This document shows positions 12,878-40,496 of a stretch of DNA of 64,000 bases, piece by piece. Origin of the DNA: Nitrospirota bacterium (GTDB taxonomy: Bacteria; Nitrospirota; UBA9217); NCBI GenBank assembly GCA_037444505.1, contig JBBIMH010000013.1, positions 51,972 through 115,971 of the forward strand, in the 5' to 3' direction. Made by a program: the position numbers and the translations under genes. The notes below the pieces were generated by a model that saw nothing but the letters and a program-made list of their open reading frames with translations, searched no databases and was not told the origin of the DNA. Position 1 is the first letter of the stretch. Every line of letters begins with the position of its first letter.

Positions 12878-12995
12878 CTCGTAAAAAAGCATTTGCACCG
12901 CCGAGAGCGCCGAGGGCACGGAGAAAAACGTCTATCTTTTGAATGGGCTCTCGGCGCTCTCCGCGATCTCTGCGGTAAATCGAACTTTTTACGAG
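12878..12995. repeat. Palindromic MITE/REP-like intergenic repeat, copy 1
   Basis: ctcgtaaaaaag...caccgcc at the left end and ctctgcggtaaat...ctttttacgag at the right end. Same family as the copies at 38297, 40262 and 40390. Confidence 0.6.
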
Positions 12996-13077
12996 TTCAT
13001 CAATATTCCCAGCCCCAAAGGCCGCTTCTTATCCGTGTTTATCCGTATGCAACAGTGGTAAAAGATTGTTTATCATT

Positions 13078-13818
13078 TTAAGCTTTTTCCCACTTAATGA
13101 CAAGGAGGATGACCGAGCCGGCAGCAAAGAGGACCGCACCCACGAGCGCCCAGATTGCTCCGGGGTCTTTGTTGACCATGAGGACGGCGGAAGGCCCGGC
13201 CTCGAAGGCAAGGCTTTTAAGATACACGCCCGTCCCCTTGTAGAAGAGCGGGCTGTTCGGCCCGAGCATGCCCGCCTTCACCCTCTTGCCGTCTTCGAAC
13301 ACATATACCTCGGCGGACCAGTCCGTAAGATAACCCGCGTCGTCCACCTTCGCGCGGATCTCGCGGAGGTAGAGCCCCCGGTCTTCTGGCAGCCGCGCGA
13401 AGGCGCCCTCGGGCATGACGCCGGAGAGACGGTATCCCCACACCGCCCCCATGAGGTGTGCAAGAAGGATGAACAGGAACCCGATGTGGATGATTTGAGG
13501 CGAAATGCGGAGAAGAAAGTCCCTTCGTGTCCACCGGCCCTTTACAGTCTGGATGCTGCAGACGAGAGTGTTGATGGTAAGAATGACAAGAGCGGCGACG
13601 GAGGCGAAGAACCACCAAGTCTGCCACAGGTGCCTCGCGCCCGCCTCGGCAGCCCACTCAAAGAGCAGGGCGCTGTTCATGGGGCCAAAGACCTCGCGGT
13701 ACGCGGGCATCATGTACGAGCCGATGAAAAAAAGGGCAATGAGCGCCACGAGCGTCCAGACCGTAGTCTTGAGGGAGATGAAGAAGTCCTTCATGATAAA
13801 TCGATAGGCATATTGCAC
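13078..13818 (-). CDS. Short ResB/Ccs1-like cytochrome c biogenesis membrane protein
   Basis: N-terminal and C-terminal transmembrane segments with ResB-like motifs but a much shorter periplasmic region. An alternative start MKDFF at 13794 overlaps the stop of the upstream fragment (ATGA). Confidence 0.55.
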   Translation of the reverse strand: MQYAYRFIMKDFFISLKTTVWTLVALIALFFIGSYMMPAYREVFGPMNSALLFEWAAEAGARHLWQTWWFFASVAALVILTINTLVCSIQTVKGRWTRRDFLLRISPQIIHIGFLFILLAHLMGAVWGYRLSGVMPEGAFARLPEDRGLYLREIRAKVDDAGYLTDWSAEVYVFEDGKRVKAGMLGPNSPLFYKGTGVYLKSLAFEAGPSAVLMVNKDPGAIWALVGAVLFAAGSVILLVIKWEKA

Positions 13819-14027
13819 GGGGCAGAGAGCTCTGTTTTTACGCTATGCTCTCTGCTCAATGTCATTTGCCGTCCCTTAAAACTCATGCGAGTTTTCATCA
13901 AAAGCCAGACACCCGCGCATAGAAACATGACGATAATGAAACCAGAGATGCCCATCCATGAAATAAGACGACCGCCTCGGATATAAGGATTCTTTCCCGG
14001 ATGTAGTACAACACGGCTTATTGAATC
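13791..14027 (-). pseudogene. Duplicated 3' fragment of ccsA (CcsA C-terminus remnant)
   Basis: Minus-strand frame encodes ..VVLHPGKNPYIRGGRLISWMGISGFIIVMFLCAGVWLLMK.., against the CcsA C-terminus YLHARLIKGWSGRPVSWMGIAGFVIVMFLYAGVGLLMK. About 75% nucleotide identity to 16815-16950. An in-frame TAA lies upstream and there is no convincing start. Confidence 0.45.
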
Positions 14028-14158
14028 TTACACGAACTGCGGAAAAACAGCAACCCGAGAAATGCTTCGTGGCATATGACGGACACCAACGGTTCGAGAC
14101 AGCGCCCTATACATTGCCCTCTCCCTGCCGGGGGAGAGGATGAGCGTAAGAGGAATTG

Positions 14159-14821
14159 TCACTTCTTTGCATATTCCTCGATCTTCCCGTTCTTCATGAC
14201 GAGCTTCCGATCGGCGAGCCGATCGGCCTGACCTGCGTCGTGGGTTGTAATAATGATGGTACGGCCGTGCTGTTGCTTGAGCCTCGTGATTATGCCTTCG
14301 ATGATCTCCGTGTTCTCCTGATCTACCGAGGCCGTAGGCTCGTCGAGGAAAAGGATTTCCGGTTCGATGGCCAGCGCCCGTGCGATGCCGAGCCTCTTGG
14401 TCTCGCCGCTCGAGAGGGTCAGCGCCCGCTGGTCCCGCTTCGTATCGAGACCGACGAAGGCGAGTGCATTCATTGTCCGCTCTTTCAGTTCATGTCTTTT
14501 AGTTCCGCGTACGGCAAGACCATATGCGACGTTCTTAAACACTGTGGTGTTGAACACGCCGACCTGCGGCAGCACGAGAGTGATCCTGCGGCGGAGCGCC
14601 ATGTCCCTCGGCATCTCCTGATCGCCGGAAAAATACCGCACCTCTCCCCCGTCCTGTTGCTCGAGGAGCGCGCATATCCTGAGGAACGTTGACTTGCCGC
14701 TCCCGTTAGGCCCAGTGAGCACATATGTCGTTCCTCCCTCGAAGGAAAAGGAACAGCCACGCAGCACGGGTCTGCCGCCGTAGCTCTTCGAGATTTGGGA
14801 TGCAATCAGTCTCAGGCTCAT
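14159..14821 (-). CDS. tupC: Tungstate/molybdate-type ABC transporter ATP-binding protein (TupC-like)
   Basis: Walker A GPNGSGKST, signature LSSGETKRLGIARAL, Walker B ILFLDEP. Immediately downstream of tupB. Confidence 0.75.
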   Translation of the reverse strand: MSLRLIASQISKSYGGRPVLRGCSFSFEGGTTYVLTGPNGSGKSTFLRICALLEQQDGGEVRYFSGDQEMPRDMALRRRITLVLPQVGVFNTTVFKNVAYGLAVRGTKRHELKERTMNALAFVGLDTKRDQRALTLSSGETKRLGIARALAIEPEILFLDEPTASVDQENTEIIEGIITRLKQQHGRTIIITTHDAGQADRLADRKLVMKNGKIEEYAKK

Positions 14822-14823
14822 GA

Positions 14824-15525
14824 TTACGCGTGCACTCCTCCCCTTCTCTGGACGATGTGCAGCACCGCATTGATCGCAAACGATAGCGCGAGAAGGATGG
14901 TCCCGAGCGCTAGGGCAAGTTCGAAATTCCCCTTGTCCGTCTCGAGGGCGATCGTCGTGGTCATCACCCGTGTGGAGCCTGCAATGTTACCGCCCACGAT
15001 CAGGATCGCGCCCACCTCGGCCATGACCCTGCCGAAGGCTGCGATCACCGCCGACAAAATCCCATACCGCGCTTCCCTGATAATCGTTATTATGGTCTGG
15101 AAGGGAGTTGCCCCGAGAGAGACCGCGGCCTGTCTAACCGCCTGATCCACGGCGACAACGGCAGAATGGCAAAGGGCCGCGACGATGGGCAAGGCAAGGA
15201 CGGTCTGGGCGATGACCATGGCCGACGGCGTATAGAGAAGTCCCATAAAACCCAGAGGCCCGCTCCTCGAAAGAAGCAGGTAGACGAAGAGCCCCACGAC
15301 GACAGGCGGAAGGCCGGTGAGTGTGTTCATGACGCTGATGACGAAGCCTCGGCCCGGGAACCGCGCCAGCCCCGTCGCCGCTCCCGCAGGGACCCCGCCG
15401 ATGACGGACAGGAGGAGCGCGACGCCCGAGACCTCGAAGGTGAGCAGAATGATCCCGATGAGCTCGGCGTCAAGGTGAACAATCAGGCCGAAGGCCTTTA
15501 TGAAGCCCTGGGTGATGGAGTCCAT
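14824..15525 (-). CDS. tupB: Tungstate ABC transporter permease (TupB-like)
   Basis: 233-aa polytopic permease directly 3' of the binding protein, with a 3-bp gap to the ATPase. Confidence 0.75.
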   Translation of the reverse strand: MDSITQGFIKAFGLIVHLDAELIGIILLTFEVSGVALLLSVIGGVPAGAATGLARFPGRGFVISVMNTLTGLPPVVVGLFVYLLLSRSGPLGFMGLLYTPSAMVIAQTVLALPIVAALCHSAVVAVDQAVRQAAVSLGATPFQTIITIIREARYGILSAVIAAFGRVMAEVGAILIVGGNIAGSTRVMTTTIALETDKGNFELALALGTILLALSFAINAVLHIVQRRGGVHA

Positions 15526-15636
15526 AAAAACTTCATTTTAACCGCTGATGTACGCAGATTCACATGGATAAAAAATTTCAATACTCCATGTCAGTCTGTC
15601 ATGCGAATTCATCCGTGTTCATACGTGATAAATAAA

Positions 15637-16443
15637 TCACTTTGCGTTCGGCTTGAACAGCACGATTCCGTTTTTGTCCTTGAACGACGCAATGGCCGTC
15701 TGGCCTTCCTTCGAGACGAGCCAGTTCACGAACTCCCTAGCTTCCTTGTACTTCACGTGCTTGTGCTTCGCCGGGTTCACAACCATTACGCCGTACTGAT
15801 TGAAGAGCGAAGGGGCACCCTCGAAAACCATGACCATATCGAGCTTGTCCTTCGTGGCAAGCCATGTGCCGCGGTCCGTGAGCGTGTAGGCCCGCTTTTC
15901 ATCGGCGATCCGCTGAGTCTTCTCCATTCCCTGGCCGGCCTCAAGATACCACTTCTGACCCGCAGGATCAATCCCTGCAGCCTTCCAGAGGGTAAGCTCT
16001 TTCGTGTGGGTGCCTGATTTGTCGCCGCGGGAAACGAATAGCGCACCTGCTCTCGCGATCTTCCGGAGCGCATCTACTGCCGTCGTTGCGCTTTTGAGCT
16101 TCGCGGGGTCATGCGGCGGGCCGATGATCACGAAGTCATTGTACATCACGTCGTGCCGGTCCACAAACCAGCCCTCCTCCACAGCCTTGAGCTCCTGCTC
16201 CTTCGCATGGACCAGGACAACGTCTGCGTCGCCACGCTTACCGATCTCGATGGCCGCGCCCGTACCCACGGCGATCAGGTCCACTCTGATGCCAGTTTTC
16301 TTTTCGAATAGCGGCAGGATGTAATCAAACAACCCCGAATTCTGCGTGCTCGTCGTCGAAGCGCAGCGGATTCTCGGCTGTTCTGTAAGGGCCGCGCATG
16401 TTGATGCTGCCAGTATAATCAGTACCGGCAACGCTCTCTTCAT
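15637..16443 (-). CDS. tupA: Tungstate ABC transporter substrate-binding protein (TupA-like)
   Basis: Signal peptide. Anion-binding motif TTSTQNSGL near the N-terminus, which is characteristic of TupA. Confidence 0.75.
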   Translation of the reverse strand: MKRALPVLIILAASTCAALTEQPRIRCASTTSTQNSGLFDYILPLFEKKTGIRVDLIAVGTGAAIEIGKRGDADVVLVHAKEQELKAVEEGWFVDRHDVMYNDFVIIGPPHDPAKLKSATTAVDALRKIARAGALFVSRGDKSGTHTKELTLWKAAGIDPAGQKWYLEAGQGMEKTQRIADEKRAYTLTDRGTWLATKDKLDMVMVFEGAPSLFNQYGVMVVNPAKHKHVKYKEAREFVNWLVSKEGQTAIASFKDKNGIVLFKPNAK

Positions 16444-16804
16444 GATCGTCTCCTTTTTTGTATGAGTATGACAAGCAGTCTTATTTGCTTATGCGCGAGA
16501 AATCTCTTTAAATCGTTATGGAACTTCCAGAGCAGATCGATTGCTCGTTCCCCCGCCTCAGGCACCTGTCCGCTACCTACCACTTGCATCCTGTGGCAAG
16601 TTCCGCAAAGGGTTTTTCGGCCTGGCGGTTAATGGAATCCTCGATGTCCAAAGCGCGGCGACATGTCATTTCCATGGACTCAGCCGCTGACTGACTAATC
16701 GAATATGACGCGGACTTTTTTGTCACCAGCGGGCTCGATGACCCCCGGAGCGAACAATGAGCGGTAACGGACCCTAGCTGTTACATGCCTGTCTCTCCTC
16801 ACAT

Positions 16805-17512
16805 CTACGGATAGAACTCATGCGAGCTCTTCATCAAAAGCCCGACTCCCGCATAAAGAAACATGACTATAACGAAGCCCGCTATGCCCATCCAGGAGAC
16901 AGGACGCCCACTCCACCCCTTTATGAGCCTTGCATGAAGATAGAGGCTGTACCATAACCAAACAATAGTCGTCCAGAGCTCCTTGGGTGTCCAGAGCCAG
17001 TAGGTCCCCCAGGCAAGATGCGCCCATATGCCGCCGAATATCATCCCGACCGAGAATATGACATAACCGACCAGGATGAGGCGGTACTGGTTCCGCTCGG
17101 AGTTTTGCTCGTTTCCACAGAGATGCAACAGACCCCAGACAGCGGCGATGCCGAAGAGCGCATATGCTACGAAAGTCAATACGACGTGCAGCTCGAACCA
17201 TAACGTTTTCAAGACCGGCGGCAGCGGAGCCTGCATCTGCGGCGCGTATGCTGAGAACACAAGAAGCGCCAGAATGAGAGGGACGGAGATGTAGGTGAAT
17301 AGATCGCGCCTGCGTCTCCAGGCAAATACTGCATAGACTGCAGCAAGGGCAAAGGTGAGAAAGCCCAAGGTATCATGAAGACCGACAAGAGGTATGCGGC
17401 CGTATTCTACGGCACTTTGTGCGATTGCGACTGCATGCAGTAGAAGTCCGACAACGACCAACCGCGGCCTGTACATCGCGGCGCAGTAGAGAAAGGGAAT
17501 GATTATTTCCAT
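16805..17512 (-). CDS. ccsA: Cytochrome c-type biogenesis protein CcsA/ResC
   Basis: WWD-type motif WAHLAWGTYWLWTPKELW with conserved His residues. Polytopic membrane protein. Confidence 0.8.
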   Translation of the reverse strand: MEIIIPFLYCAAMYRPRLVVVGLLLHAVAIAQSAVEYGRIPLVGLHDTLGFLTFALAAVYAVFAWRRRRDLFTYISVPLILALLVFSAYAPQMQAPLPPVLKTLWFELHVVLTFVAYALFGIAAVWGLLHLCGNEQNSERNQYRLILVGYVIFSVGMIFGGIWAHLAWGTYWLWTPKELWTTIVWLWYSLYLHARLIKGWSGRPVSWMGIAGFVIVMFLYAGVGLLMKSSHEFYP

Positions 17513-17529
17513 AACAGGCGAAGACTAAA

Positions 17530-17557
17530 AAGGCATCCCGTATCATGGGGATGCCTT
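17530..17557 (-). terminator. Rho-independent terminator downstream of hup
   Basis: On the minus strand AAGGCATCCC-catgatac-GGGATGCCTT is followed by TTTTAG, a perfect 9-10 bp stem. Confidence 0.6.
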
Positions 17558-17590
17558 ATACCAGCAGCATTAATGAATCCGCTGTATTGT

Positions 17591-17878
17591 CTATTTCTTA
17601 CCGAGAATCGCCTCTTTGGCAGCCTTGGCGACGCGGAACTTGACCACCTTCTTCGCGGGTATCTTGATGGCCTCGCCGGTCTGGGGGTTCCTGCCCATGC
17701 GCGCCTTGCGGTTTACGAGGACGAGTTTCCCGAGGCCGGGAAGCGTGAAGGCGTTCTTGGCCTCCTTGTAAGCAAGGTTTGCCAGCTCCTCGAGAAACTG
17801 GACAGCCACCTTTTTCTTGATGTCCACCTTCTTCGCCAGGTAGTCCGCAATCTGGGACTTTGTCATGGCTTTTGCCAT
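17591..17878 (-). CDS. hup: HU/IHF-family nucleoid-associated DNA-binding protein
   Basis: MTKSQIADYLAKK...GLGKLVLVNRKARMGRNPQTGEAIKIPAKKVVKFR is canonical HU sequence. Confidence 0.9.
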   Translation of the reverse strand: MAKAMTKSQIADYLAKKVDIKKKVAVQFLEELANLAYKEAKNAFTLPGLGKLVLVNRKARMGRNPQTGEAIKIPAKKVVKFRVAKAAKEAILGKK

Positions 17879-18133
17879 AAACTTTCCTCCTTGAATGATG
17901 AAATGAGAATGTTATTTCGACTGCCGTGGCAGATATGCCGCAATTTTCGTTTAAAGTATATCCATTCTCCGCAAAAATAGCAAGCAAAATTTTAAAAAAC
18001 TTTTTGTGGCTGGATGACTGCTCACGATGGACCTTTTTCTGAGTTGACTTGCGTATCCGATTTATGTTAATTTATGCGACGATTCGACGGACCGCGTCTG
18101 TTGAAGCAGCTATTTTATTTCACAAGGAGGCGG

Positions 18134-18262: not shown

Positions 18263-18361
18263 CTTTTAAAATCGTAAGGCTTTTTCGTACAACCGGCTGC
18301 ATGATAAGTCCCACAGCTGGAACGATATATTATACTCTTATTAGGCGGCGAAAACAGCGTT

Positions 18362-21978: not shown

Positions 21979-21979
21979 T

Positions 21980-25788: not shown

Positions 25789-28700
25789 TCACTTGCCGAC
25801 CCCAAGGCCTGTAGTCAGATCTGTGTACTGTCTCAAGACCCTCGGATCTATGTCAGCCGCCTGGAGGAATACTTTTTTCGCCTCTTCCTTTTTGCCCATC
25901 AGCATAAGGACCCTGGCGAGATTGCACATAATGCCAGGGTCGTCAAGAGAAGACTTGAGCGCGGACTCGTACGCCTGTCTTGCGTCATCGAGCCTTTCTT
26001 GAAGCAGGCTGATATTGCCGATATTGTTCAGTGCAATCGGATTAGTCTTGTCTATGGAAAGCATCCTCTGGAACTGCTCGAGCGCCTCTGTGTAGAGGCC
26101 GTTCTCTCCGTAGAGTATGCCGAGCTGACCCAGGGCATGGATGTCATCTGGGTTCTTCTTGAGCGCCTCTGTGTATTCGGCAGAAAGATAGGAAAGCCTC
26201 TGTCTCGCCAGTGACTCGAGCTCTCCCTTGAACCTCGCCTCGATCTCCTGCCGAGTAACCTTGATGGCTCTGCTTTCTGCGCCGGGGAGCGTGACGGGCT
26301 TGAACTCCTCCCAGGCCTTCTGTATCTCTATTATCTCGAGCCCCTTCTTTGCGGACCAATCTCTATACTGCTCCGCTCCTTTCTGCCATGCCTTTGTGAA
26401 CGATGAGCCCACAAGCGTCATCTCCACAGGTATCCATACGAATCCTCTGTGCACGACCAGTCTTTCATCAGGGAAGCCGAGCGTCTTCTTTTCGGCCTCC
26501 GTGACGCCGGTATTGAAGATAACGAATACATGGCCGGGCACGTCAACAAGCGCAGCAGCAATACCGATGTTCTCCAGTGCAGCGGCGAACAGGACCGACA
26601 GGTCATCGCAGTCTCCGCTCTTTCTGTTTATCGTGTCCCTCGGGTATTGCAAATAATCCACGCGGGCCGTATTCTCGGAAAATTCCTGATACGGACTCGT
26701 GGGATCCACGATATACGACAACCCATAGATCCCGAGGGCTGCGAACAACGCGCGTCCGTAGACGATGTTGGCGTGCAGGTTCGGATATGCATCCACATAC
26801 TGCTGTACCACTGACCTGCTGAAGTCCGCTACTATGGGGTCGCGCGGGGTCACGAATGCCGCCGCCTTTTCCTTCCTGTCCCACGTCATGGCATGCCGCT
26901 CATAAAGGGTTATCGGAAATGAGCGGGCAACTGTGCGCGGCTCGCCTGCAACGTGATATGTCAGAGATATCTCGCTTTGGACCGATGTGTTCTCCGTTAT
27001 GTCGAGAATGCGGTTGCAGAATACCGGCTTGATGTCGAAGACCATCTCCTGCTTAGGCGGAATCTGCTCTATTTCTATCTCTGTCGGGTAATCCATTATC
27101 CTTTTTATGGTGAAACCGAGCTTCACCTTGGGATAGACACTGTCTGTATTGTTCCTTATGGCGACCCTTCCGAGGGGCCTTACCTCATAGTGCTTGTATG
27201 CAGAGGCGAATATCTCACCCATCTCAACCTTTGCGATCTCAAGAGGCGGTACTGTAAGGGATGCCTTCGGCGTGGTTGCGAAGACCACCTCGCTCGGCTG
27301 GCTCTCGTCTCCTTCTTTGCCGACGGCCGTTATCTGGTAGTAATAGAGGGTCTCGTCCGCCAGAGGGCTGTCCACGAACACTGTCTTGTCAGACTTCTGC
27401 AAAAGCTCGAATCCCGACGAAAGCTGCCTGGTCCTGTAGATATTATAGTGGCTTACAAACGGCTCTGTATTCGGCAGCCATGCCAGTGTAATCTGTTTTT
27501 CTGTCGCCTGTATCTGGGGTTTCTTCGGCGAAGAGGGAACGAGCCTCGGGGTGACAGCGGATACGGTTTCGGACAAGGCGCTCTCGTTTCCCGAAGAGGC
27601 CTTGCTGCTTATTCTATAGTGAAAGGCGCGGTTGCTAGGAAGGTTTCTGTCTATATAGAACGGCTCTGTACTCGTTGCAATAAGCCTGAATTCATCTCCG
27701 GGTGATTCCGCGCGAAAGATCCTGTATTGCTCGAGATATGTCTCCTGATTCGGCCTCCAGCTCAATTGTATCTCGTTCACCCTACCCTGGGCAGCGACAC
27801 CTTGCGGCACGGATGGAGTATGCCTAAGGATGAATACCTGGACGCGGTTGTTCCCGCTGTCTCCAACATACAGTCTTATCCCTTCTTCGAGCGCCATGCC
27901 GCGCGGAGAGCGGAATTCGCCCGGTCCCTTGCCTCTGCTCCCGAATTTTCTCAAGTACTTTCCGGTCGTCGCATCGAAGACCTGTATCCGAGAATTCCCA
28001 GAATCGAGGACATATATCTCATCGTCGGCGGAGACTATTATACTCTCGGGTTTATCGAACTGGCCTGGACCGCTGCCGGTCTTTCCGACCTCCCACAAGA
28101 GCACCCCTGTGTCGTCGTATTTCGCAATACGGTCGTTGCCGCGATCGACGACATATATATTCTCATGCGCATCCACTGCAAGATCAACAGGCTCCCACAA
28201 CTGACCAGTAAGTCTGCCGGGCTTACCGAATGCGCCTAGGAACATGCCCTTCGGGCTAAACACCTGGATGCGTCTGTTGCCTGTATCTGCAACGCAGATA
28301 TTTCCCCTCGGACTGATTGCAACGGCCCAGGGAGATTCGAACTCTCCCTCGCCTGTTCCGGGCTTTCCGATTACCTGAAGGAGGTTTCCCTCGAGGCTGA
28401 ATTTCTGAAGCCTGTCATTGCCGGTATCCGCCACCCAGAAATTGCCCCTACCGTCCACAGCGATTCCGTGAGGCTTTCTGAGGCGGCCGGGTTCTGAGCC
28501 TGTCTGGCCTATCTTTCTGCCGTCAATCACACCCACTGCAACGAGTGCATCTTCGACTATCCCCCACGCCCTCTTTTCGAATGCGATGCCGCTTATCCCT
28601 CCGTGCGGCAATGGGATCTCCTTCAACAGCCCCACGGATGCAAGCGGCGAAGCCTTCGATAGAGGCACAGCATCGCCCTTCTCGCATGCGAATATCTGGA

Positions 28701-29601
28701 GCGTATTTTTTCTGGAATCGAGCACATAGACATTGGCCTCCTCATCAACGTCTATGCCACGAGGCTCGCGGAACTGGCCCGGTCCGTCTCCTTCCGTGCC
28801 GAGCGAGCCAAGGAGCCTTCCCTGGAAATCGAACTTCTTGAGCTTGAAATTCTCCGTATCAGAAACGAATATCCGTCCGTATATATCGACCGCAATACCC
28901 GAGGGCTCGTTGAATCCGTCCGTCCCATTGCCCTTCGTTCCGAAGGAGTTGATCTGGCCTCCGGAGGCGTCGAATATACGCACGCGTCCGGCCTTGGAAT
29001 CGAGTACATATATCCTGTTCTGCCGGTCCACAGCGACATCTATCGGCCCTTTCATCACGTCCGTCTTTGTTCGGAAAGTAATCTCGCCTAGGTATATGCC
29101 GTCAACAGTGAGGGTCTGCACCCTTTCATTATCGGTATCCGCAACATACAGAATGCCCTTGGACACGTCTATGCCGGATGGATTGCTGAATTGCTTGGGG
29201 CCTGAGCCTTTCCCGCCGATGCTCCTGATGAATGCTCCGTCTTGAGTAAAGACCTGTATACGGCTATTTCCGCTGTCCGCTACATACACCATGCCGTCTT
29301 CGTCAACGGCGATCCCGGACGGCGCCTTGAACTGGCCGTTCCTATCCCCCTTAGAACCCCAACTCTGGATCGTCTTTCCGTTTCTGTCCAGGACGAGTAT
29401 GCGGTTTGCGTCCGTATCCGCAATATAGAGTCTGCCGTGTGTGACTACAATCCCCCTCGGCCCGTTCATGAGCCGTTGCCCTGCAGGCCTCCCATATTCG
29501 CCGATCTCTTTAATAAACTCTATTTGCTGATAGGAAAATGCAGGAACCGCGAGGATGGACAGGCAGAGCAGGATGATAATAAGGTATGCCAAGCGAAGCA
29601 T
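25789..29601 (-). CDS. Giant secreted protein: NHL-repeat beta-propellers + two fibronectin-III-like domains + transglutaminase-like core + C-terminal TPR
   Basis: Signal peptide. Eleven or more NHL-type repeats (GQF..P.GIAVD..G..YVAD). fn3-like segments. A transglutaminase-like core (GDCDDLSVLFAAAL..GHVFV..WIPVE). TPR tail. Confidence 0.75.
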   Translation of the reverse strand: MLRLAYLIIILLCLSILAVPAFSYQQIEFIKEIGEYGRPAGQRLMNGPRGIVVTHGRLYIADTDANRILVLDRNGKTIQSWGSKGDRNGQFKAPSGIAVDEDGMVYVADSGNSRIQVFTQDGAFIRSIGGKGSGPKQFSNPSGIDVSKGILYVADTDNERVQTLTVDGIYLGEITFRTKTDVMKGPIDVAVDRQNRIYVLDSKAGRVRIFDASGGQINSFGTKGNGTDGFNEPSGIAVDIYGRIFVSDTENFKLKKFDFQGRLLGSLGTEGDGPGQFREPRGIDVDEEANVYVLDSRKNTLQIFACEKGDAVPLSKASPLASVGLLKEIPLPHGGISGIAFEKRAWGIVEDALVAVGVIDGRKIGQTGSEPGRLRKPHGIAVDGRGNFWVADTGNDRLQKFSLEGNLLQVIGKPGTGEGEFESPWAVAISPRGNICVADTGNRRIQVFSPKGMFLGAFGKPGRLTGQLWEPVDLAVDAHENIYVVDRGNDRIAKYDDTGVLLWEVGKTGSGPGQFDKPESIIVSADDEIYVLDSGNSRIQVFDATTGKYLRKFGSRGKGPGEFRSPRGMALEEGIRLYVGDSGNNRVQVFILRHTPSVPQGVAAQGRVNEIQLSWRPNQETYLEQYRIFRAESPGDEFRLIATSTEPFYIDRNLPSNRAFHYRISSKASSGNESALSETVSAVTPRLVPSSPKKPQIQATEKQITLAWLPNTEPFVSHYNIYRTRQLSSGFELLQKSDKTVFVDSPLADETLYYYQITAVGKEGDESQPSEVVFATTPKASLTVPPLEIAKVEMGEIFASAYKHYEVRPLGRVAIRNNTDSVYPKVKLGFTIKRIMDYPTEIEIEQIPPKQEMVFDIKPVFCNRILDITENTSVQSEISLTYHVAGEPRTVARSFPITLYERHAMTWDRKEKAAAFVTPRDPIVADFSRSVVQQYVDAYPNLHANIVYGRALFAALGIYGLSYIVDPTSPYQEFSENTARVDYLQYPRDTINRKSGDCDDLSVLFAAALENIGIAAALVDVPGHVFVIFNTGVTEAEKKTLGFPDERLVVHRGFVWIPVEMTLVGSSFTKAWQKGAEQYRDWSAKKGLEIIEIQKAWEEFKPVTLPGAESRAIKVTRQEIEARFKGELESLARQRLSYLSAEYTEALKKNPDDIHALGQLGILYGENGLYTEALEQFQRMLSIDKTNPIALNNIGNISLLQERLDDARQAYESALKSSLDDPGIMCNLARVLMLMGKKEEAKKVFLQAADIDPRVLRQYTDLTTGLGVGK

Positions 29602-34255: not shown

Positions 34256-36199
34256 TCACGCCGCCTTCTTGATCTCTTCTTTGATGTAATTCAGCGTCCC
34301 TCCTGCAAGAAGATGTCTGCGCTGTCTTTCGGAGACATCGAGCAACGTAATAATAATCCGCCCATCAACAACAACCGGAATCTCCCCCTCACCCTTCTCT
34401 ATGCGGGCCTTGAGATCCGAGAATTCCATCTTCATACCGGGCTCTATCCTGTCATAGTCTTCGGGGTACTTGAATGTAAGTGGAAGTATTCCGAAGTTGA
34501 TGAGATTGGCCCTGTGTATGCGTGCAAAGCTCTTTGCAATCTTGACCCTGACGCCGAGATATCGGGGCGCAAGCGCTGCGTGCTCGCGGCTCGAGCCCTG
34601 GCCGTAGTTCTCTCCGCCGATTATGACCGCATTTCCCGCAGCCCTGCACCTTCTCGGAAACTCAGGGTCTATCTGGGTATACACGAATCCGCTTATCGCC
34701 TCTATGTTGGATCTGAACGGAAGCACCTCGTTTCCTGCAGGCATTATCGTATCCGTGGATATATTGTCGCCCACCTTGAGCACAACCTTCGCAGTCAAAA
34801 TATCAGGAAGTGGATCAAGCACAGGAAGGGGCTTGATATTGGGTCCACGGATTATCGCGGTCTTTCGACCTTCTTCTGAGGGGAATATGATGGAGCGTTC
34901 ATCGATGAGGTATCTCTGCGGGTCTGTGATCTCTGGGTACTCCATCTCTTTGGACAGCTCGCGCGGATCAGTGATGACCCCTTTTATCGCCGATGCAGCA
35001 GCGGTCTCGGGCGAGCAGAGATATATGCGATCGTCCTTCGTGCCTGATCTTCCCGGGAAATTGCGCGGAAACGTCCTCAGGCTCACCCAACCCGAGCCGG
35101 GGGCCTGGCCCATGCCGATGCAGCCCTGGCAACCCGGCTCATGAACCCTCGCGCCGGCCATGAGAAAGGACAACAGCCCGTTCTGTCTCGCCACGTTCTC
35201 GAGGACCTGTCTGCTGCCTGGATTGATATGAAAATGGACATCAGGATGCGCATGCCTGCCTTCCACTATTTTCGCCGTCATCATCAGATCTCGGAAGGAT
35301 GAATTCACACTGCTTCCCACTATCACCTGGTCCACCTTCATACCTGCGACCTCGCGCACAGGCACCACATTTCCAGGAGACGGCGGAAGCGCGATGAGCG
35401 GCTCCAGCCCGGACAGGTCTATTTCATCGTATTCATCATATTCAGCGTCTTCATCAGCCTTCAACTCGATCCATACATGCCCCCTGCCCTGGGCCTTAAG
35501 GTATTCCCTTGTCCTCTCATCAGACGGGAATATGGTGCTTGTCGCACCCAGCTCGGCACCCATGTTGCCGATGGTCTCCCTGTCCGTAGCAGACAGATTC
35601 GCTACGCCCGGGCCGTAATACTCGATGATCTTGCCGAGGCCGCCTTTCACGCCATGCCTCCTAAGCATTTCGAGTATAACGTCCTTGGCGCTCACCCAGT
35701 CGGGCAATTTCCCCACCAGCTTCACACCCAGCACCTTCGGGCATTCGAGACGATAAGGATAGCCCGCCATGGCCAGCGCGACATCCAGACCTCCTGCGCC
35801 GATCCCCAGCATAGAGACGCCTGCCGCACCCGTCGTATGGCTGTCCGCCCCGAGCAATATCTTTCCTGGCACGCCGAACCGCTCCATATGCACCTGATGA
35901 GACACGCCGTTTCCCGGACTGCTGAAGTGGATGCCGAATCGAGCGGAGGCGGTCTGGAGGAACCTGTGATCGTCGGCGTTCTTGTTGTCGGTCTGAAGAA
36001 GATTATGGTCCACGTACTGGACCGCCGTCTCCACCTTGACACACTCGATGCCCAAGGCCTCGAATTCGAGCAGGGCAAGCGTGCCGGTCGCGTCTTGCAG
36101 CAGGGTCTGGTCTATCCTTATTCCTATCTCCCTGCCGGGGACAAGCTCTCCCTCCACGAGATGCGACTCGAGGATCTTATATGCGAGATTCTTCGGCAT
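34256..36199 (-). CDS. Aconitate hydratase (aconitase-family, about 650-aa fused form)
   Basis: GADSHTT, Fe-S ligand region CQGCIGMGQAP, and a C-terminal swivel domain. Confidence 0.85.
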   Translation of the reverse strand: MPKNLAYKILESHLVEGELVPGREIGIRIDQTLLQDATGTLALLEFEALGIECVKVETAVQYVDHNLLQTDNKNADDHRFLQTASARFGIHFSSPGNGVSHQVHMERFGVPGKILLGADSHTTGAAGVSMLGIGAGGLDVALAMAGYPYRLECPKVLGVKLVGKLPDWVSAKDVILEMLRRHGVKGGLGKIIEYYGPGVANLSATDRETIGNMGAELGATSTIFPSDERTREYLKAQGRGHVWIELKADEDAEYDEYDEIDLSGLEPLIALPPSPGNVVPVREVAGMKVDQVIVGSSVNSSFRDLMMTAKIVEGRHAHPDVHFHINPGSRQVLENVARQNGLLSFLMAGARVHEPGCQGCIGMGQAPGSGWVSLRTFPRNFPGRSGTKDDRIYLCSPETAAASAIKGVITDPRELSKEMEYPEITDPQRYLIDERSIIFPSEEGRKTAIIRGPNIKPLPVLDPLPDILTAKVVLKVGDNISTDTIMPAGNEVLPFRSNIEAISGFVYTQIDPEFPRRCRAAGNAVIIGGENYGQGSSREHAALAPRYLGVRVKIAKSFARIHRANLINFGILPLTFKYPEDYDRIEPGMKMEFSDLKARIEKGEGEIPVVVDGRIIITLLDVSERQRRHLLAGGTLNYIKEEIKKAA

Positions 36200-36414
36200 A
36201 CTACCCCCTAATCAGGAGTACAAAAGTCTTATTTTATTTCGCGCTTTTTTCTCTCTTGTATCCGTAATTATTATTTTATCACTACAGACCGGATTGTCAA
36301 TTGACCCTAAAGGTGTAGGCAGGGCGAATGGGCAATAAATCAGCCGGAAACCCACAAGTCACGAAAGGAAGAGTCAAAGAAGACGGCTTGACCCGGGACG
36401 GCGTAAGATGCGGA

Positions 36415-37026
36415 TCAGTCCCCGTCTGTGATGATCTTTCGCACCCGGAGAAACTCCCTGTTCTTCATCGAATCAAGGGACATTCTCGCGAGCTCGAGCA
36501 CATTTCTGTATATGGCGAAATTCTCCGCAAGCTCCTTGAAGATGTCGCCTTGTGTATACTCCGCCGCCAGACTGTAGGAGCGCCTGCCCTGGAGCTGGTA
36601 GTGCTCGAAAAGGGTGGAACCAGGGACTATGAGGCTTCCGAGTATGAACTCCTTTCCGCGCTTTCTGAACAAGGCCATGGGAAACATTCCGAGCATGAAG
36701 AGGGTATAGTCTCCGATATGCTTGTGCACCTGGAACTCTCGGTCCACCTCGGCGTCCCTGGGGCGCACATCTCCTTCGGCGAGCATATCGGCTATGTCTT
36801 CTAAGTTCCGGCCGAGGGAGTCTTTTATCTTATACAGGTTGTCTGTATGTATGAACTCGCAAAGTATATGCTCCTCGATGTACTCGCCTGCCTCCGGCTT
36901 GGATTGGGGATTCGCGCGCAGCCCGAACTCAAGCGCACGCCTGAAAAGCCTTCTTAGGGGATGTTCCGGTCTGATCTCCGCCCTTCTCACCATAAAACGC
37001 ACCTCCTTGACGAGAAGGTTTTTCAA
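36415..37026 (-). CDS. Hypothetical protein (203 aa)
   Basis: ORF with no recognised family. Start uncertain (MVRRAEI alternative). Confidence 0.35.
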   Translation of the reverse strand: MKNLLVKEVRFMVRRAEIRPEHPLRRLFRRALEFGLRANPQSKPEAGEYIEEHILCEFIHTDNLYKIKDSLGRNLEDIADMLAEGDVRPRDAEVDREFQVHKHIGDYTLFMLGMFPMALFRKRGKEFILGSLIVPGSTLFEHYQLQGRRSYSLAAEYTQGDIFKELAENFAIYRNVLELARMSLDSMKNREFLRVRKIITDGD

Positions 37027-37373
37027 TGGTCATTTTACCGCAAGCAGGCGGCCGTGTCAAACCAGCATGGGTGCATCCAAAGATTGTTTTTCAAGCGCCG
37101 GCCTTGTCTTAATCTGAGCGAATGATCCGACAGATGAGACAACGCTTGATCGCATAGGCCGTGGATAGCTATGTGGATCTATAACCCAATATCGTCCACT
37201 GTATGCGGCTTCATAATTCGACGATCAGTATAGTCACGAAGGCCGGGAAACAGTACCCAAACGGCAACACCTGATCACCATCTGTAAATCGTTAGAGACG
37301 ACGCTGCCTTTGCCCCGCGGGCCGGGTTATTCCAACTTAGAATGGACGTTTTAAGGACACGTACTATGGGAGG

Positions 37374-38213
37374 CTACGACAATTTTCTGATGCCATTCTT
37401 GCAGATCGGCTCTCTCTGCTCCATACGCCGTTTAAGTATCGAAAGATTATGCTGGTACTTATCATTATTAAAGCTCCAAGTAGAACCGTGCCAGAGATGA
37501 AATACAATCGCGAGCCCCCTTACGCTCTTGAGCTGTCCGCCGTAATTCTGCACGCGCACCCCGATATCGTTATCCTCTATGGATCCGTCAACAAAATCTT
37601 CGTCGCAACCGTTAATTGCGATAAACAGGTCTTTGTACAGGCTGAAATTGCAACCCCAAAGACCGTCTTTAGGAATACGGTCTCGATGCATCAGGCGTCT
37701 CAACATGGCGCTTTTGATAGGTATCGCCTCTAATACACGACGTGAATGAAATGGGTCCTTGCTCATGGAGCTTATCAGCAGGCGAAGATTTATGTTATTC
37801 ATTACTTCATCTCTTTGGATAAGTCGGTCGGTCAATGCCTTGCCTATCTCGACACGTCTACCGCACAGAGCGACATCAGGCGAGGAATGCCTGATATGGC
37901 TTGAGATAAAATCCCTGTGCGCCATGCAATCGCCATCTATAAAAATAAGATAATCCCCGGACGCCTGCACGACCGCCTTGTTGATAATATGCGGTTTTCT
38001 AAAACCAATGTCTTCCTGCCACACATGGACTATACCAAAATGTTTCTCTGCGGCCGCCTGCATTTCCTTGACCACTGCCTCAGTTTCCGAACCGCTGCCA
38101 TCATCGGCGATAACGACTTCATTTGGGGGCACACTTTGCTGCATCAATGATTTTATGCATAATTTAAGTGCATGCGGCCGATTATATGTAGGGACAATTA
38201 CGCTTATTTTCAA
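37374..38213 (-). CDS. Family-2 glycosyltransferase
   Basis: ISVIVPTYNRPHAL...IADDGS.. and DGD motif (IFIDGDCM). Noticeably AT-richer than the flanks. Confidence 0.75.
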   Translation of the reverse strand: MKISVIVPTYNRPHALKLCIKSLMQQSVPPNEVVIADDGSGSETEAVVKEMQAAAEKHFGIVHVWQEDIGFRKPHIINKAVVQASGDYLIFIDGDCMAHRDFISSHIRHSSPDVALCGRRVEIGKALTDRLIQRDEVMNNINLRLLISSMSKDPFHSRRVLEAIPIKSAMLRRLMHRDRIPKDGLWGCNFSLYKDLFIAINGCDEDFVDGSIEDNDIGVRVQNYGGQLKSVRGLAIVFHLWHGSTWSFNNDKYQHNLSILKRRMEQREPICKNGIRKLS

Positions 38214-38296
38214 AATACCTCCTCAAAAACCACGATGGCATTTGAGCCTGCAGTAAACAAAAGCATGGAATTATACCCATGTTAATATACGACAAA

Positions 38297-38383
38297 CTCG
38301 TAAAAAAGCTTTTCACCGCAGAGCGCAAAGATTTTGAATAGGTTCTCTCCGCGCACTCAGTGGTAAATTCGGCTTTTTACGAA
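38297..38383. repeat. Palindromic MITE/REP-like intergenic repeat, copy 2
   Basis: ctcgtaaaaaagcttttcaccgcagag ... ggtaaattcggctttttacga. Confidence 0.6.
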
Positions 38384-38588
38384 TGCATCATACATAATAC
38401 CTTTTCAGAGAATGAGACATCATCCATAGTACCGCCGCTTATAGACCTGAATGGTTGAACAAACCCTTTTATCAAAAACCCTTCCCGCATCATAATATGC
38501 CGTGTCGAATTCTCATCGAGGGAAAGGTCTAAAAGCCTTCTACAAGAAAAAAGTGGAGACCAAACAGTCACAGCTGCATTTGAACAAA

Positions 38589-39194
38589 TTATCTTTCACG
38601 CACAATGCCTTTCTCAACCAGAAGGCGCAATACCATATCAGTGGCTTGTTCGATTGACACCGTATTAGTCTCTATAACCAGATCCGGCACATGCGGTTCT
38701 TCGTATAAAGATGATATCCCCGTAAAATTACTGATCTCTCCTTTCAAGGCCTTTCGATAAAGGCCCTTCACATCGCGTCGTTGGCATATATTTATTGGAC
38801 ACTTGCAATATATCTCTAAAAAATCCAGCTCTCCAAGCAAACGACGCACCCATAACCTATCTGAACGAAATGGCGAAATAAACGCGGTCATGATGATCAT
38901 GCCCGCATCGACAAATAGCTTCGCCACCTCTCCAATGCGCCTGATGTTCTCAGTGCGGTCATTATCGGAAAATCCTAAGTCCGAGCACAAGCCATGGCGG
39001 ACATTATCTCCGTCCAATACATAAGTCCTATACCCCATCGAGTAAAGCTTCTCCTCAGTAACATGGGCAATAGTTGATTTCCCTGAACCGGATAAGCCCG
39101 TGAACCACAAACATACGCTTTTGTGACCGTTGATCGCCTCTCTATGGCTACGATTGACTGTGGCATGATGCCAATGAACATTATTATTTTTCAT
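38589..39194 (-). CDS. cysC: Adenylyl-sulfate (APS) kinase
   Basis: WFTGLSGSGKSTIA..LDGDNVRHGL..DNDRTENIRR is canonical CysC. The start was chosen at MKNNNVHWH. Confidence 0.85.
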   Translation of the reverse strand: MKNNNVHWHHATVNRSHREAINGHKSVCLWFTGLSGSGKSTIAHVTEEKLYSMGYRTYVLDGDNVRHGLCSDLGFSDNDRTENIRRIGEVAKLFVDAGMIIMTAFISPFRSDRLWVRRLLGELDFLEIYCKCPINICQRRDVKGLYRKALKGEISNFTGISSLYEEPHVPDLVIETNTVSIEQATDMVLRLLVEKGIVRER

Positions 39195-39262
39195 CACACG
39201 CATAAACTCTCCAACATCTCTTTGGAGTAAGCTAAATATCTGCATTAAACTACCGCATCAAT

Positions 39263-39964
39263 CTATCCTATTGGCACATGAACAATTCCAATCCCATAAC
39301 CCGTCTGATTCGGATCGTGTATAAACTCCTCAGTCTGCACTTCTTTTTTCAGTTCCTGCCAAAAATAATAAACCTGATTTGTTGAAAGATGCTGTTTCTT
39401 TATAATATCATGAAAGGCGATTATCCCCCCGGGGCGCACAAATCTTTTATAAGCGTGATAGTCTGCGGCAACTCCGCTCTCTGAGTGATCGCCGTCGATG
39501 AACAAAAAATCGACGCGCTTTCCGTTTAATTGCATAGCGACCTGCTCTTTCATCGCATCTGTATGCGAATCTCCAGTAAGAAGGGTAACACGACACCCAG
39601 ATGATGGCGGAGGGAATGATTTATACAGAAGAGCAGCAAGGCCCTTGTTTTCAATATCACAGCTGATCACGCGCTCGGTTGCAAGATGCGACCAAATGAA
39701 AAGGGTGCCGCCATAGGCCGTGCCTATTTCCAAAATAGTGCGAGGCTTCAAACTTTCAACAGCCCTGGCCAAGGCTACTATCTCTGAATATATTTGCATT
39801 GTTCTTACCTTAAAATATCCGTGTCCGCCGAATGTCAGCGACATATTTACAATCTCTTCTATCGTCCTCTGTTTGCTGTGAAACTGTTTGAGCTTTCTAA
39901 AAGACTGGAATGCATTGAAGGGCGCCCCTAAAACATATTCTATTTTCCTGACAACCTTACTCAT
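39263..39964 (-). CDS. Class I SAM-dependent methyltransferase (CmcI/TylF-like sugar or small-molecule O-methyltransferase fold)
   Basis: ILEIGTAYGGTLF SAM motif I, DFLFIDGDH, IIAFHDI. Confidence 0.7.
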   Translation of the reverse strand: MSKVVRKIEYVLGAPFNAFQSFRKLKQFHSKQRTIEEIVNMSLTFGGHGYFKVRTMQIYSEIVALARAVESLKPRTILEIGTAYGGTLFIWSHLATERVISCDIENKGLAALLYKSFPPPSSGCRVTLLTGDSHTDAMKEQVAMQLNGKRVDFLFIDGDHSESGVAADYHAYKRFVRPGGIIAFHDIIKKQHLSTNQVYYFWQELKKEVQTEEFIHDPNQTGYGIGIVHVPIG

Positions 39965-40261
39965 TAATTAACCTCTGCAATAATTATCGAAGGTAGTTTA
40001 TTTCATCACGCATTGAACTTCAGAGCAAGTTTTCAGGCCGCCGCTTTAGCGCAACGGGCGGTACTGATTTTGGAAGTCACTTCACATGCGCAATTCAGTG
40101 AGTGTCTTGTCGTACAATCTGCGCGGAGCGTTCTTTTTCACGCCCATTTATATCATATATTTATGCCTATATCAACACGATTTTACTAAGATTAGCACTC
40201 TAAGCAATCTACGTCTCTGTTTTAATCTTCCCTGTCTTTTTCTTATTTCAATCTTGATGAA

Positions 40262-40370
40262 CTCGTAAAAAGTCCCATTTCACCGCAGAGGCCGCCGAGA
40301 TCGCCGAGAAAGGCTCTGAATGAAAACGCATTTTTTCTGCGTGCTCGGCGGTAAGGTTGACTTCTTACGA
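40262..40370. repeat. Palindromic MITE/REP-like intergenic repeat, copy 3 (right end diverged)
   Basis: ctcgtaaaaagtcccatttcaccgcagag...ggcggtaaggttgacttcttacga. Tandem with copy 4, including the flank caatcttgatg. Confidence 0.55.
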
Positions 40371-40389
40371 TGCCATCAATCTTGATGCA

Positions 40390-40496
40390 TTCGTAAAAAA
40401 CCGAATTTACCGCAGAGATCTCAGATAACGCAGAGAGAGCCCATTCACGTTTTTCTCGGCGCCCTCAGCATCATCTGCGGTGAAAAGCTTTTTACG
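40390..40496. repeat. Palindromic MITE/REP-like intergenic repeat, copy 4
   Basis: tcgtaaaaaaccgaatttaccgcagag ... atctgcggtgaaaagctttttacg, near-perfect terminal inverted repeats. Confidence 0.6.

What the first reader, a model, noticed from the sequence alone, without database searches (positions are those of the whole stretch)
12878..40496. Family of roughly 100-120 bp palindromic MITE/REP-like elements (four copies)
Four intergenic copies were found at 12878-12995, 38297-38383, 40262-40370 and 40390-40496. They share termini cgtaaaaa(a/g)...(c/t)accgcagag on the left and ctctgcggt(a/g)aa...tttttacg on the right. The two ends are inverse complements of each other. Each element can therefore fold into a long hairpin. 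Copies 3 and 4 are tandem and include duplicated flanks (caatcttgatg). All copies sit between convergent or tandem gene ends. This fits a REP/MITE-like element that may act as a terminator, an mRNA stabiliser or a recombination hotspot. Two copies bound the low-GC islet.
Basis: seen in the sequence. Interest (0 to 1): 0.6.

Follow-up and report, generated by a model that had tools for sequence, protein, structure and literature searches.

The report
Small transposon relics between genes
The four palindromic repeats are real and are non-coding miniature transposons (MITEs). They share their 20-bp ends and 4-bp insertion scar with a 1.9-kb IS1182-like insertion sequence, so they are an ordinary kind of selfish DNA in a family that seems not to have been described.

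Summary
The window holds exactly four copies of an imperfect palindrome of 101-132 bp, at 12871-13002, 38290-38390, 40255-40378 and 40383-40505. All four lie between genes on the minus strand.

They are MITEs, not REP elements.
- The ends are TGATGnnnTCGTAAAAAG...CTTTTTACGAnnnCATCA.
- Each is flanked by a 4-bp target-site duplication. It is perfect (ATCT) for copy 3 and 3 of 4 for the other three.
- Across related copies, 14 of 42 duplications are perfect, against 0.8 expected by shuffling.

The family occurs in at least 90 genome loci from Nitrospirota, Thermodesulfobacteriota and other former Deltaproteobacteria, and Pseudomonadota.

The same 20-bp ends and 4-bp duplication flank a 1.9-kb insertion sequence. 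It encodes one DDE transposase of 575-584 aa that is closest to the IS1182 family. One copy sits in a Thermodesulfovibrionales MAG. This IS is the likely mobiliser.

The arms carry CGCNGAG heptamers every 8-9 bp. Their variable positions do not pair, so nothing indicates a selected RNA or DNA hairpin. No Rfam family matched, and no canonical terminator or promoter was found.

The tandem pair (copies 3 and 4) fits a general habit of inserting exactly 4 bp from an existing end. I found 12 such junctions.

Verdict: a new member of a known kind, of modest interest.

The parts
12871..13002 (+). MITE copy 1 (132 bp). Its ends are TGACAagcTCGTAAAAAAG ... CTTTTTACGAgttCATCA. Each arm carries three CGCNGAG heptamers. 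Strand here means arm A (AAGCATTTGC spacer) lies on the left.
12867..12870 (.). Left target-site duplication of copy 1 (AGAT). The right one is ATAT at 13003-13006, so 3 of 4 bases match.
   Evidence: read
13003..13006 (.). Right target-site duplication of copy 1 (ATAT).
38290..38390 (+). MITE copy 2 (101 bp). It is internally deleted, with only about one and a half heptamers per arm. Its left terminus has decayed to CGACA.
38286..38289 (.). Left target-site duplication of copy 2 (TATA). The right one is TACA at 38391-38394, so 3 of 4 bases match.
38391..38394 (.). Right target-site duplication of copy 2 (TACA).
40251..40254 (.). Left target-site duplication of copy 3 (ATCT).
40255..40378 (.). 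MITE copy 3 (124 bp). Its ends are TGATGaacTCGTAAAAAG ... CTTCTTACGAtgcCATCA. The duplication ATCT/ATCT is perfect. The arm type is ambiguous, so no orientation is assigned.
40379..40382 (.). ATCT. This is both the right duplication of copy 3 and the left flank of copy 4, so the two elements sit head to tail exactly 4 bp apart.
40383..40505 (-). MITE copy 4 (123 bp). It is inverted relative to copies 1 and 2, with arm A on the right. Its right terminus has decayed to AATCG. The right flank is ATAT at 40506-40509.
40506..40509 (.). Right flank of copy 4 (ATAT, against ATCT on the left; 3 of 4 bases match).

Best explanation

Structure. Each copy is a non-coding DNA of about 100-135 bp. Its outer 20 bp on each side (TGATGnnnTCGTAAAAAG(T/A)) form the terminal inverted repeat.

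Mechanism (inferred). A DDE transposase supplied in trans recognises these ends, excises or copies the element, and joins it to a target cut with a 4-nt stagger. Repair of the stagger leaves the 4-bp duplication. The preferred target is A|ANNT|T. This resembles the junction CATCA-NNNN-TGATG between two abutting elements, which explains insertion exactly 4 bp from an existing end, as in copies 3 and 4.

Likely transposase. It is the single 575-584 aa protein of a 1.9-kb IS1182-like insertion sequence that has the same ends and the same duplication length.

Interior. The heptamer arrays are not derived from that IS. The same ends flank many unrelated palindromic interiors.

Status of each step. 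Shown: the repeat family, its ends, the duplication, a filled/empty site pair in a sister type, the shared ends with the IS, and the transposase domains. Inferred: that this transposase mobilises the window's type, the chemistry of the cut, and any effect on neighbouring genes.
For: Copies and ends.

Target-site duplication.
- The duplicated 4-mer lies exactly 9 bp outside CGTAA. 14 of 42 are perfect at that offset, against 3 or fewer at any other offset.
- Shuffled flanks give a mean of 0.8 perfect, with a maximum of 5 in 10,000 shuffles. 112 of 168 positions match, against 59.6 +/- 5.5.
- Target consensus: A at -5 in 34 of 42, T at +5 in 38 of 42.

Spread. 126 elements were found in 90 of 116 genome loci. 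None were found in viral contigs or plasmids.

Same ends on other elements. The ends flank 59 MITE-size elements with other interiors, 28 of them with perfect 4-bp duplications, against a shuffle mean of 1.8 and maximum of 8.

Filled and empty site. In L186, 4222-4333 is filled and 5365-5478 is empty, and AAAT is duplicated.

Autonomous elements.
- L238 2477-4378 has the duplication ACCT/ACCT, and L180 has AGTT/AGTT.
- L213, L134 and L244 are further copies.
- L245 is a copy in a Thermodesulfovibrionales MAG.

Transposase. Pfam finds DDE_Tnp_1_6, DUF772 and DDE_Tnp_1. NCBIfam finds IS1182 with E 1e-49 over profile positions 40-485 of 488. Every IS-size element that is framed by both ends and carries a 3-of-4 or perfect duplication encodes a homologue at 57-84% identity.

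Tandem junctions. 12 have exactly 4 bp between the ends, against 0-3 for every other spacing from 0 to 11. The window's pair is one of the 12.

Window taxonomy. The window is from a Nitrospirota bacterium, the phylum of the MAG that carries the IS.
Against: - No transposase of this type lies in the 64-kb window or in the 116 genome loci that carry the heptamer type. Co-residence of this MITE type and the IS in one genome is therefore not shown.
- Only the outer 20 bp are shared with the IS.
- The transposase scores below NCBIfam's trusted cut-off for IS1182 (169.8 against 270 bits).
- Three of the four window copies have imperfect duplications (3 of 4), and the copies are only 58-67% alike. 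Mobility in this genome is ancient at best.
- The filled/empty pair is from a sister type with a different interior.
- Taxonomic labels on 2-kb MAG contigs are unreliable.
Confidence: 0.8

Rival explanations
1. REP or REPIN-type elements. These are short palindromes spread by a RAYT (IS200/IS605-like Y1 transposase) acting on single-stranded hairpins.
For: The elements are palindromic, intergenic, sometimes in tandem pairs, and fold into hairpins.
Against: REPs leave no target-site duplication, whereas this family has a 4-bp one. The ends are shared with a DDE-transposase IS. The elements are 100-135 bp, not 20-40 bp. No RAYT gene turned up among the recurring ORF clusters of 816 kb of element-bearing loci; nine ORFs from six of those clusters were put through Pfam. 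The window's ORFs were not all screened.
Confidence: 0.03
2. The element is primarily a functional RNA structure, such as a terminator, attenuator or mRNA-stabilising hairpin, kept by selection on the transcript.
For: Folding energy is strong for most copies (z down to -6.4). All window copies lie between co-oriented genes and would be transcribed if read-through occurs. Related loci show a mild excess between convergent genes: 17 of 64, against 17.5% of all intergenic gaps in the same loci.
Against: Paired positions are invariant in sequence (CGC and GAG), while the variable N and spacer positions are Watson-Crick in only 18-49% of copies, so there is no covariation. G:T and A:C mismatches are about equal (126 against 105), so there is no strand preference. 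Both orientations occur in the window. No T-run directly follows the G+C-rich stem, and the scan found no canonical terminator. No Rfam family matched. My rough chi-square on the counts gives p of about 0.1, so the orientation bias is not significant.
Confidence: 0.05
3. The inverted arrays of CGCNGAG heptamers, spaced about one helical turn apart, are binding sites for a host DNA-binding protein. The elements would then persist because they are co-opted as regulatory or nucleoid sites, and the transposon ends would be incidental.
For: The heptamer sequence is conserved across phyla while the positions between heptamers drift. In the window, heptamer pairs occur almost only inside the elements: 9 of the 11 matches (one mismatch allowed), against 0.66 expected by chance.
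Against: No candidate protein was identified. The same ends carry dozens of unrelated interiors. Copy 2 has lost most of its heptamers. Conservation may simply reflect descent from master copies.
Confidence: 0.07

Closest known systems
IS1182 family insertion sequences (including IS1272)
   Same: The partner IS is 1.89-1.90 kb and has one transposase ORF with DUF772 and DDE_Tnp_1_6 domains. Its best NCBIfam match is IS1182, aligned over nearly the whole profile. It has terminal inverted repeats. Some members of the family are reported to target palindromes (PMC5678879, citing Siguier et al.). Here the target consensus is itself palindromic and resembles abutted ends.
   Different: The score is below the trusted cut-off (169.8 against 270 bits). 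IS1272 replaces stem-loops and leaves no duplication (PMC5678879), whereas this IS leaves a clean 4-bp duplication.
ERIC / IRU elements of enterobacteria (from my own knowledge and Table 1 of PMC3184786)
   Same: They are imperfect palindromes of about 127 bp, intergenic, found across several genera, with longer variants that carry internal insertions.
   Different: The sequences are unrelated and the hosts differ. From memory, ERIC duplicates TA and has no identified transposase. Here the duplication is 4 bp and a partner IS is identified.
Correia elements (CREE) of Neisseria (PMC10969869, PMC3184786)
   Same: They are MITEs of 100-160 bp with terminal inverted repeats, abundant, intergenic, and often co-transcribed with neighbouring genes.
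   Different: From memory, Correia elements duplicate TA, carry an IHF site and promoter elements, and have no known autonomous partner. None of these features was found here.
Chunjie MITE of Geobacter uraniireducens (PMC3184786, PMC10969869)
   Same: It is a MITE in a former deltaproteobacterium that forms very stable hairpins and sits in intergenic or operon positions.
   Different: Chunjie is 178-235 bp with 21-bp inverted repeats and 9-bp direct repeats (PMC3184786). Here the elements are 100-135 bp with 4-bp duplications and different ends.
REP / BIME / REPIN elements with RAYT transposases
   Same: They are palindromic, intergenic and clustered in pairs.
   Different: They leave no target-site duplication, are much shorter, and have an HUH/Y1 partner. 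See the membership test.

Membership tests
MITE (miniature inverted-repeat transposable element) | Small (under about 500 bp) and non-coding | tested here: met
   The elements are 101-132 bp and lie in intergenic gaps.
MITE | Terminal inverted repeats | tested here: met
   The ends TGATGnnnTCGTAAAAAG / CTTTTTACGAnnnCATCA are conserved in all subfamilies.
MITE | Target-site duplication of fixed length | tested here: met
   The duplication is 4 bp. 14 of 42 are perfect against 0.8 expected, and 28 of 59 in sister types. In the window it is perfect for copy 3 and 3 of 4 for the others.
MITE | Many dispersed copies | tested here: met
   There are 4 in the window and 126 in 90 genome loci.
MITE | Ends shared with an autonomous insertion sequence | tested here: met
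   Elements of 1.9 kb with the same 20-bp ends and 4-bp duplication encode a DDE transposase.
MITE | Presence/absence polymorphism at a site | tested here: inconclusive
   A filled/empty pair was found for a sister type with the same ends (L186). None was found for the heptamer type or for the window's own sites. The contig of the 96% relative ends at the site.
REP / REPIN (RAYT-mobilised) | No target-site duplication | tested here: not met
   A 4-bp duplication is present.
REP / REPIN (RAYT-mobilised) | Associated RAYT (Y1/HUH) gene flanked by the repeats | not tested
   The source genome beyond the 64 kb is not available. No recurring Y1-type ORF appeared in the element-bearing loci, but only nine ORFs from the recurring clusters were put through Pfam.
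IS1182 family (for the partner IS) | Transposase reaches the family profile's trusted score | tested here: inconclusive
   NF033551 gives E 1e-49 and 169.8 bits over profile positions 40-485 of 488, but the cut-off is 270. It is the best of all IS profiles, with ISNCY_1 next at 65 bits.
IS1182 family (for the partner IS) | Single ORF, terminal inverted repeats, length about 1.3-1.95 kb (length range from memory of ISfinder) | tested here: met
   The elements are 1,885-1,902 bp, with one ORF of 575-584 aa and 20-bp inverted repeats.
Intrinsic terminator | G+C-rich stem followed directly by a T-run | tested here: not met
   The T-run is separated from the G+C-rich stem by a 9-nt internal loop. 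The scan found only small hits at the chance rate.
Any Rfam RNA family | Covariance-model match | tested here: not met
   No match reached the gathering score. The relaxed search gave only chance hits, the best at E 0.018 to U6.

The most novel reading that the evidence does not exclude
One IS1182-like transposase lineage has had its 20-bp ends coupled again and again to unrelated palindromic interiors: heptamer arrays, GTCATTCCGGC...GCCGGAATGAC hairpins, AT-rich hairpins and nested modules. The resulting MITE superfamily has spread across at least three phyla. That would imply a mechanism, such as insertion targeted to ends or hairpins, that captures or builds palindromes between transposon ends. 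The periodic CGCNGAG arrays might then be sites for a protein rather than hairpin formers.
Probability: 0.25. Interest if true: 0.55.

Novelty: new member of a known kind. Interest (0 to 1): 0.3.

Why it matters
- For annotation, it explains a recurrent 100-135 bp palindrome in the intergenic DNA of Nitrospirota, Thermodesulfobacteriota and some Pseudomonadota MAGs. Such repeats break assemblies: many copies sit at contig ends, and the partner IS is mostly found on contigs of about 2 kb.
- For mobile-DNA biology, it links a MITE superfamily to an IS1182-like transposase with a clean 4-bp duplication and a target that mimics abutted ends. IS1182 insertion behaviour is poorly documented, so this gives a tractable case.
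- It has no evident bearing on the function of the neighbouring genes in this window.

Tried and rejected
- Rfam, at gathering and relaxed thresholds, found nothing for the elements.
- Literature search by sequence words and by taxon plus MITE found no description. Chunjie was checked and differs, with 9-bp repeats and 178-235 bp.
- The plasmid collection gave only a 27-nt chance match. Viral contigs gave 6 pattern hits, none real.
- Clustering of ORFs near the elements, to find a transposase, turned up only sigma-54 activators, histidine kinases and housekeeping genes.
- Arm pairs 0.6-4 kb apart in the genome loci turned out to be chance matches or separate elements.
- An exact look-up of the window's aconitase found no record. 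The contig of the 96% relative stops about 50 nt short of the copy 2 site, so it gives no empty-site comparison.
- Orthologous pairs among the genome loci differ by other, end-less palindromic modules, not by this MITE.
- The test for RNA strand bias (G:T against A:C) was negative.
- The idea that copy 2 and copies 3/4 form a composite unit carrying the low-GC genes was rejected. The outer duplications differ, and the low-GC stretch extends beyond the copies on both sides.
Full report
**1. The observation.**
An nhmmer profile built from them recovers exactly these four places in the 64-kb window, with E-values from 1e-22 to 1e-39. The next hit has E 0.27. The arm pattern CGTAAAAA-N7-12-ACCGCNGAG occurs five times, against none in 100 shuffles.

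As single strands, copies 1, 3 and 4 fold better than all 200 shuffles in both orientations (z -3.8 to -6.4). The short copy 2 does so on the minus strand only (z -4.7), with z -1.75 on the plus strand.

All four lie in gaps between minus-strand genes that run in tandem:
- MnmA | ResB-like
- family-2 glycosyltransferase | APS kinase
- CmcI-like methyltransferase | YkuD-Mur ligase fusion

The window comes from a Nitrospirota bacterium. Its aconitase is 76-79% identical to proteins named as Nitrospirota or Nitrospiraceae, and one unnamed relative is 96% identical.

**2. True boundaries and the insertion scar.**
It ends at TGATG on the left and CATCA on the right. Immediately outside these ends lies a 4-bp direct repeat.
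- Of 42 elements with both arms recognisable, 14 have a perfect repeat at this offset, against 3 or fewer at any other offset.
- Shuffling the right flanks among elements gives a mean of 0.8 perfect, with a maximum of 5 in 10,000 trials.
- 112 of 168 positions match, against 59.6 +/- 5.5.
- Non-palindromic 4-mers such as TAAA, TGTT, AAGA and ATCT are repeated directly, so this is a target-site duplication and not an extension of the inverted repeat.
- The target is biased. A stands just before the duplicated 4-mer in 34 of 42, and T just after it in 38 of 42. The consensus is A|ANNT|T.

In window coordinates:

| Copy | Element | Left 4 bp | Right 4 bp |
|---|---|---|---|
| 1 | 12871-13002 | AGAT | ATAT |
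| 2 | 38290-38390 | TATA | TACA |
| 3 | 40255-40378 | ATCT | ATCT |
| 4 | 40383-40505 | ATCT | ATAT |

Copies 3 and 4 share the ATCT between them.

**3. The tandem pair.**
This arrangement is general. Across all fetched DNA, 12 head-to-tail junctions have exactly 4 bp between the two ends, against 0-3 for every other spacing from 0 to 11 bp. One of the 12 joins a full insertion sequence to a MITE (L245). The target consensus (Y)YA|ANNT|TRR resembles the abutted ends TCA-NNNN-TGA. An existing end therefore supplies half of a preferred target. That last step is inference.

**4. Distribution.**
The profile confirms 126 elements in 90 of them. By the record titles the 90 loci divide as follows:

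| Label | Loci |
|---|---|
| Thermodesulfobacteriota MAGs | 31 |
| 'Deltaproteobacteria' MAGs | 18 |
| Desulfobulbaceae or Desulfuromonadales | 4 |
| Nitrospirota | 25 |
| Pseudomonadota | 7 |
| Other labels, on short contigs | 5 |

Long contigs make Nitrospirota (614 kb, 631 kb), Thermodesulfobacteriota (471 kb) and Pseudomonadota (92 kb, 1.04 Mb; degenerate copies) secure. The same pattern gave six hits in viral contigs, none of them real, and nothing in plasmids.

Copies within one Nitrospiria MAG are 96.8% alike, and the six inspected all have perfect duplications. The window's four copies are only 58-67% alike. The family was therefore recently active in some lineages and is old in this one.

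**5. Anatomy.**
From the outside in, each arm has:
- the 20-bp end;
- a spacer of 8-12 nt that differs between the two arms of an element but is conserved within a subfamily, so the element has a defined orientation (copies 1 and 2 point one way, copy 4 the other);
- ACCGCAGAG followed by two more CGCNGAG heptamers at a period of 8-9 bp.

A short A+T-rich centre follows.

When the arms are paired without gaps, the CGC and GAG triplets are complementary in 85-100% of elements. The N position is complementary in only 33%, and the spacer positions in 16-49%. The paired positions never vary and the varying positions do not pair. There is thus no covariation, and no sign that base pairing, as opposed to the motif itself, is maintained. 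G:T and A:C mismatches are about equal (126 against 105), so no strand is favoured as an RNA.

No Rfam family matches. The consensus scans found no promoter or terminator attributable to the element. In related loci the elements are intergenic. Convergent gaps show a mild excess that is not significant (17 of 64, against 17.5% of all intergenic gaps).

**6. A superfamily, and its insertion sequence.**
The ends were searched in metagenomes with a pattern that excludes the heptamer type. The pattern requires a T at the position where every heptamer-type arm has A, C or G, and it excluded 0 of 70 local ends wrongly.

Most hits are 110-200-bp palindromes with the same ends and quite different interiors. 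28 of 59 have perfect 4-bp duplications, against a shuffle mean of 1.8 and maximum of 8.

One contig holds a duplicated segment with and without such an element. In L186, 4222-4333 is filled and 5365-5478 is empty. The empty copy has a single AAAT where the filled copy has AAAT on both sides.

Several hits are 1.9-kb elements framed by the same ends:
- L238 2477-4378 (ACCT/ACCT)
- L180 (AGTT/AGTT)
- L213 (3 of 4 match)
- L134

Each holds one ORF of about 580 aa with Pfam DDE_Tnp_1_6, DUF772 and DDE_Tnp_1. Its best NCBIfam match is the IS1182 family, with E 1e-49 over profile positions 40-485 of 488, but 169.8 bits against a cut-off of 270.

Homologues are very numerous in metagenomes, with 4,813 at E <= 1e-20. 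Most sit on contigs of about 2 kb, as expected of a collapsed multi-copy IS. Two homologues fetched from NCBI assemblies are framed by the same ends: L244 2-1903, and L245 135-2023 in a Thermodesulfovibrionales (Nitrospirota) MAG.

tblastn finds the transposase in all of these six framed elements and in two truncated loci. It finds none in the window or in the 116 genome loci.

**7. Interpretation.**
The elements are MITEs.

The proposed mechanism is that a DDE transposase of the IS1182-like IS, acting in trans, recognises the 20-bp ends and inserts the element at a 4-nt staggered cut. This rests on identical ends, identical duplication length, the shared end-adjacent insertion habit, and presence of the IS in the same phylum. 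It is not shown in the same genome, and the chemistry is inferred from what is known of DDE transposases.

The literature held here says that the IS1182 family is heterogeneous and that some members target palindromes. IS1272 replaces stem-loops without a duplication (PMC5678879). The present IS differs in leaving a clean 4-bp duplication.

The interior of the window's type is not IS-derived. Its origin and the meaning of the periodic heptamers remain open.

**8. What it is not.**
- It is not a REP or REPIN element, because it has a duplication and a DDE partner.
- It is not Chunjie, which has 9-bp repeats and is 178-235 bp.
- It is not a duplicated gene fragment, because it is intergenic in 90 unrelated loci.
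- It is not a demonstrable terminator or RNA.
- The low-GC stretch (about 37-41 kb) extends beyond the copies that flank the APS kinase and methyltransferase genes, and their outer duplications differ. A composite-transposon reading therefore has no support. An A+T-rich target preference would by itself place copies there.

**9. Verdict.**
The 'REP/TnpA' label and the functional suggestions are not supported. This is a new member of a known kind. No description was found in Rfam or in the searched papers, and ISfinder could not be consulted. Interest is modest. The points worth a specialist's attention are the breadth of the superfamily that shares one pair of ends, the end-adjacent insertion, and the non-pairing heptamer arrays.

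Noticed in passing
window 10783-10839 (-): This is the only Rfam hit above the gathering score in the window: a c-di-GMP-I riboswitch aptamer (36.8 bits, cut-off 35). It lies upstream of the minus-strand ORF 10098-10592.
   Followed up: no
window 50227-50477: A second, larger imperfect palindrome of about 250 bp lies in the gap between plus-strand ORFs 48231-50168 and 50500-51246. Its outer arms are TTCGTAGAAATTATTTCGGCTCCTCACGG / TCGTGATGAGCTGAAATTTCATTTACGA, and an inner arm contains GTCATTCCGGC. DNA fold z is -4.2. It lacks the TGATG/CATCA termini. It may be a decayed sister-type element or may be unrelated.
   Followed up: partly
L114 1215-1528 against L094 214-356; also L110, L017, L025, L044, L057: At one orthologous site, one MAG has the plain 143-bp element and another has the same element with two further palindromic modules nested at its centre. 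These modules lack the TGATG ends. How they got there is unexplained.
   Followed up: partly
L125, L127, L150, L167, L182, L199 and many other metagenome loci: The commonest sister interior is a pair of hairpins of the form GTCATTCCGGCGAAAGCCGGAATCCAG ... CTGGATTCCGGCTTTCGCCGGAATGAC. From memory it resembles the ATTCCC-N8-GGGAAT dRS3 repeats of Neisseria. I did not test this resemblance.
   Followed up: no
L002 against L051; L011 100-300: Intergenic DNA of these Thermodesulfobacteriota and related MAGs holds further palindromic repeat modules without the MITE ends. Examples are AAAATCCCCCT..GGGGG blocks and AACATCGAACGCTGAACG arrays. They differ between orthologous sites.
   Followed up: no
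window 28263-29436: Direct repeats of 26-44 nt, spaced at about 140 nt and multiples of that, lie inside the 1270-aa ORF 25789-29601 (-). The orthologue in L117 carries NHL and TPR repeat domains. These are therefore coding repeats of a repeat protein.
   Followed up: partly
window 13894-13973 and 16830-16909: An 80-nt segment is repeated at 80% identity 2.9 kb apart, near the ResB-like gene. It probably marks paralogous membrane-protein genes, but I did not examine it.
   Followed up: no
L245 135-2182: In a Thermodesulfovibrionales MAG contig the full IS (135-2023) is followed after exactly 4 bp by a 155-bp MITE of another interior type (2028-2182). This shows IS and MITE side by side on one contig.
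   Followed up: yes
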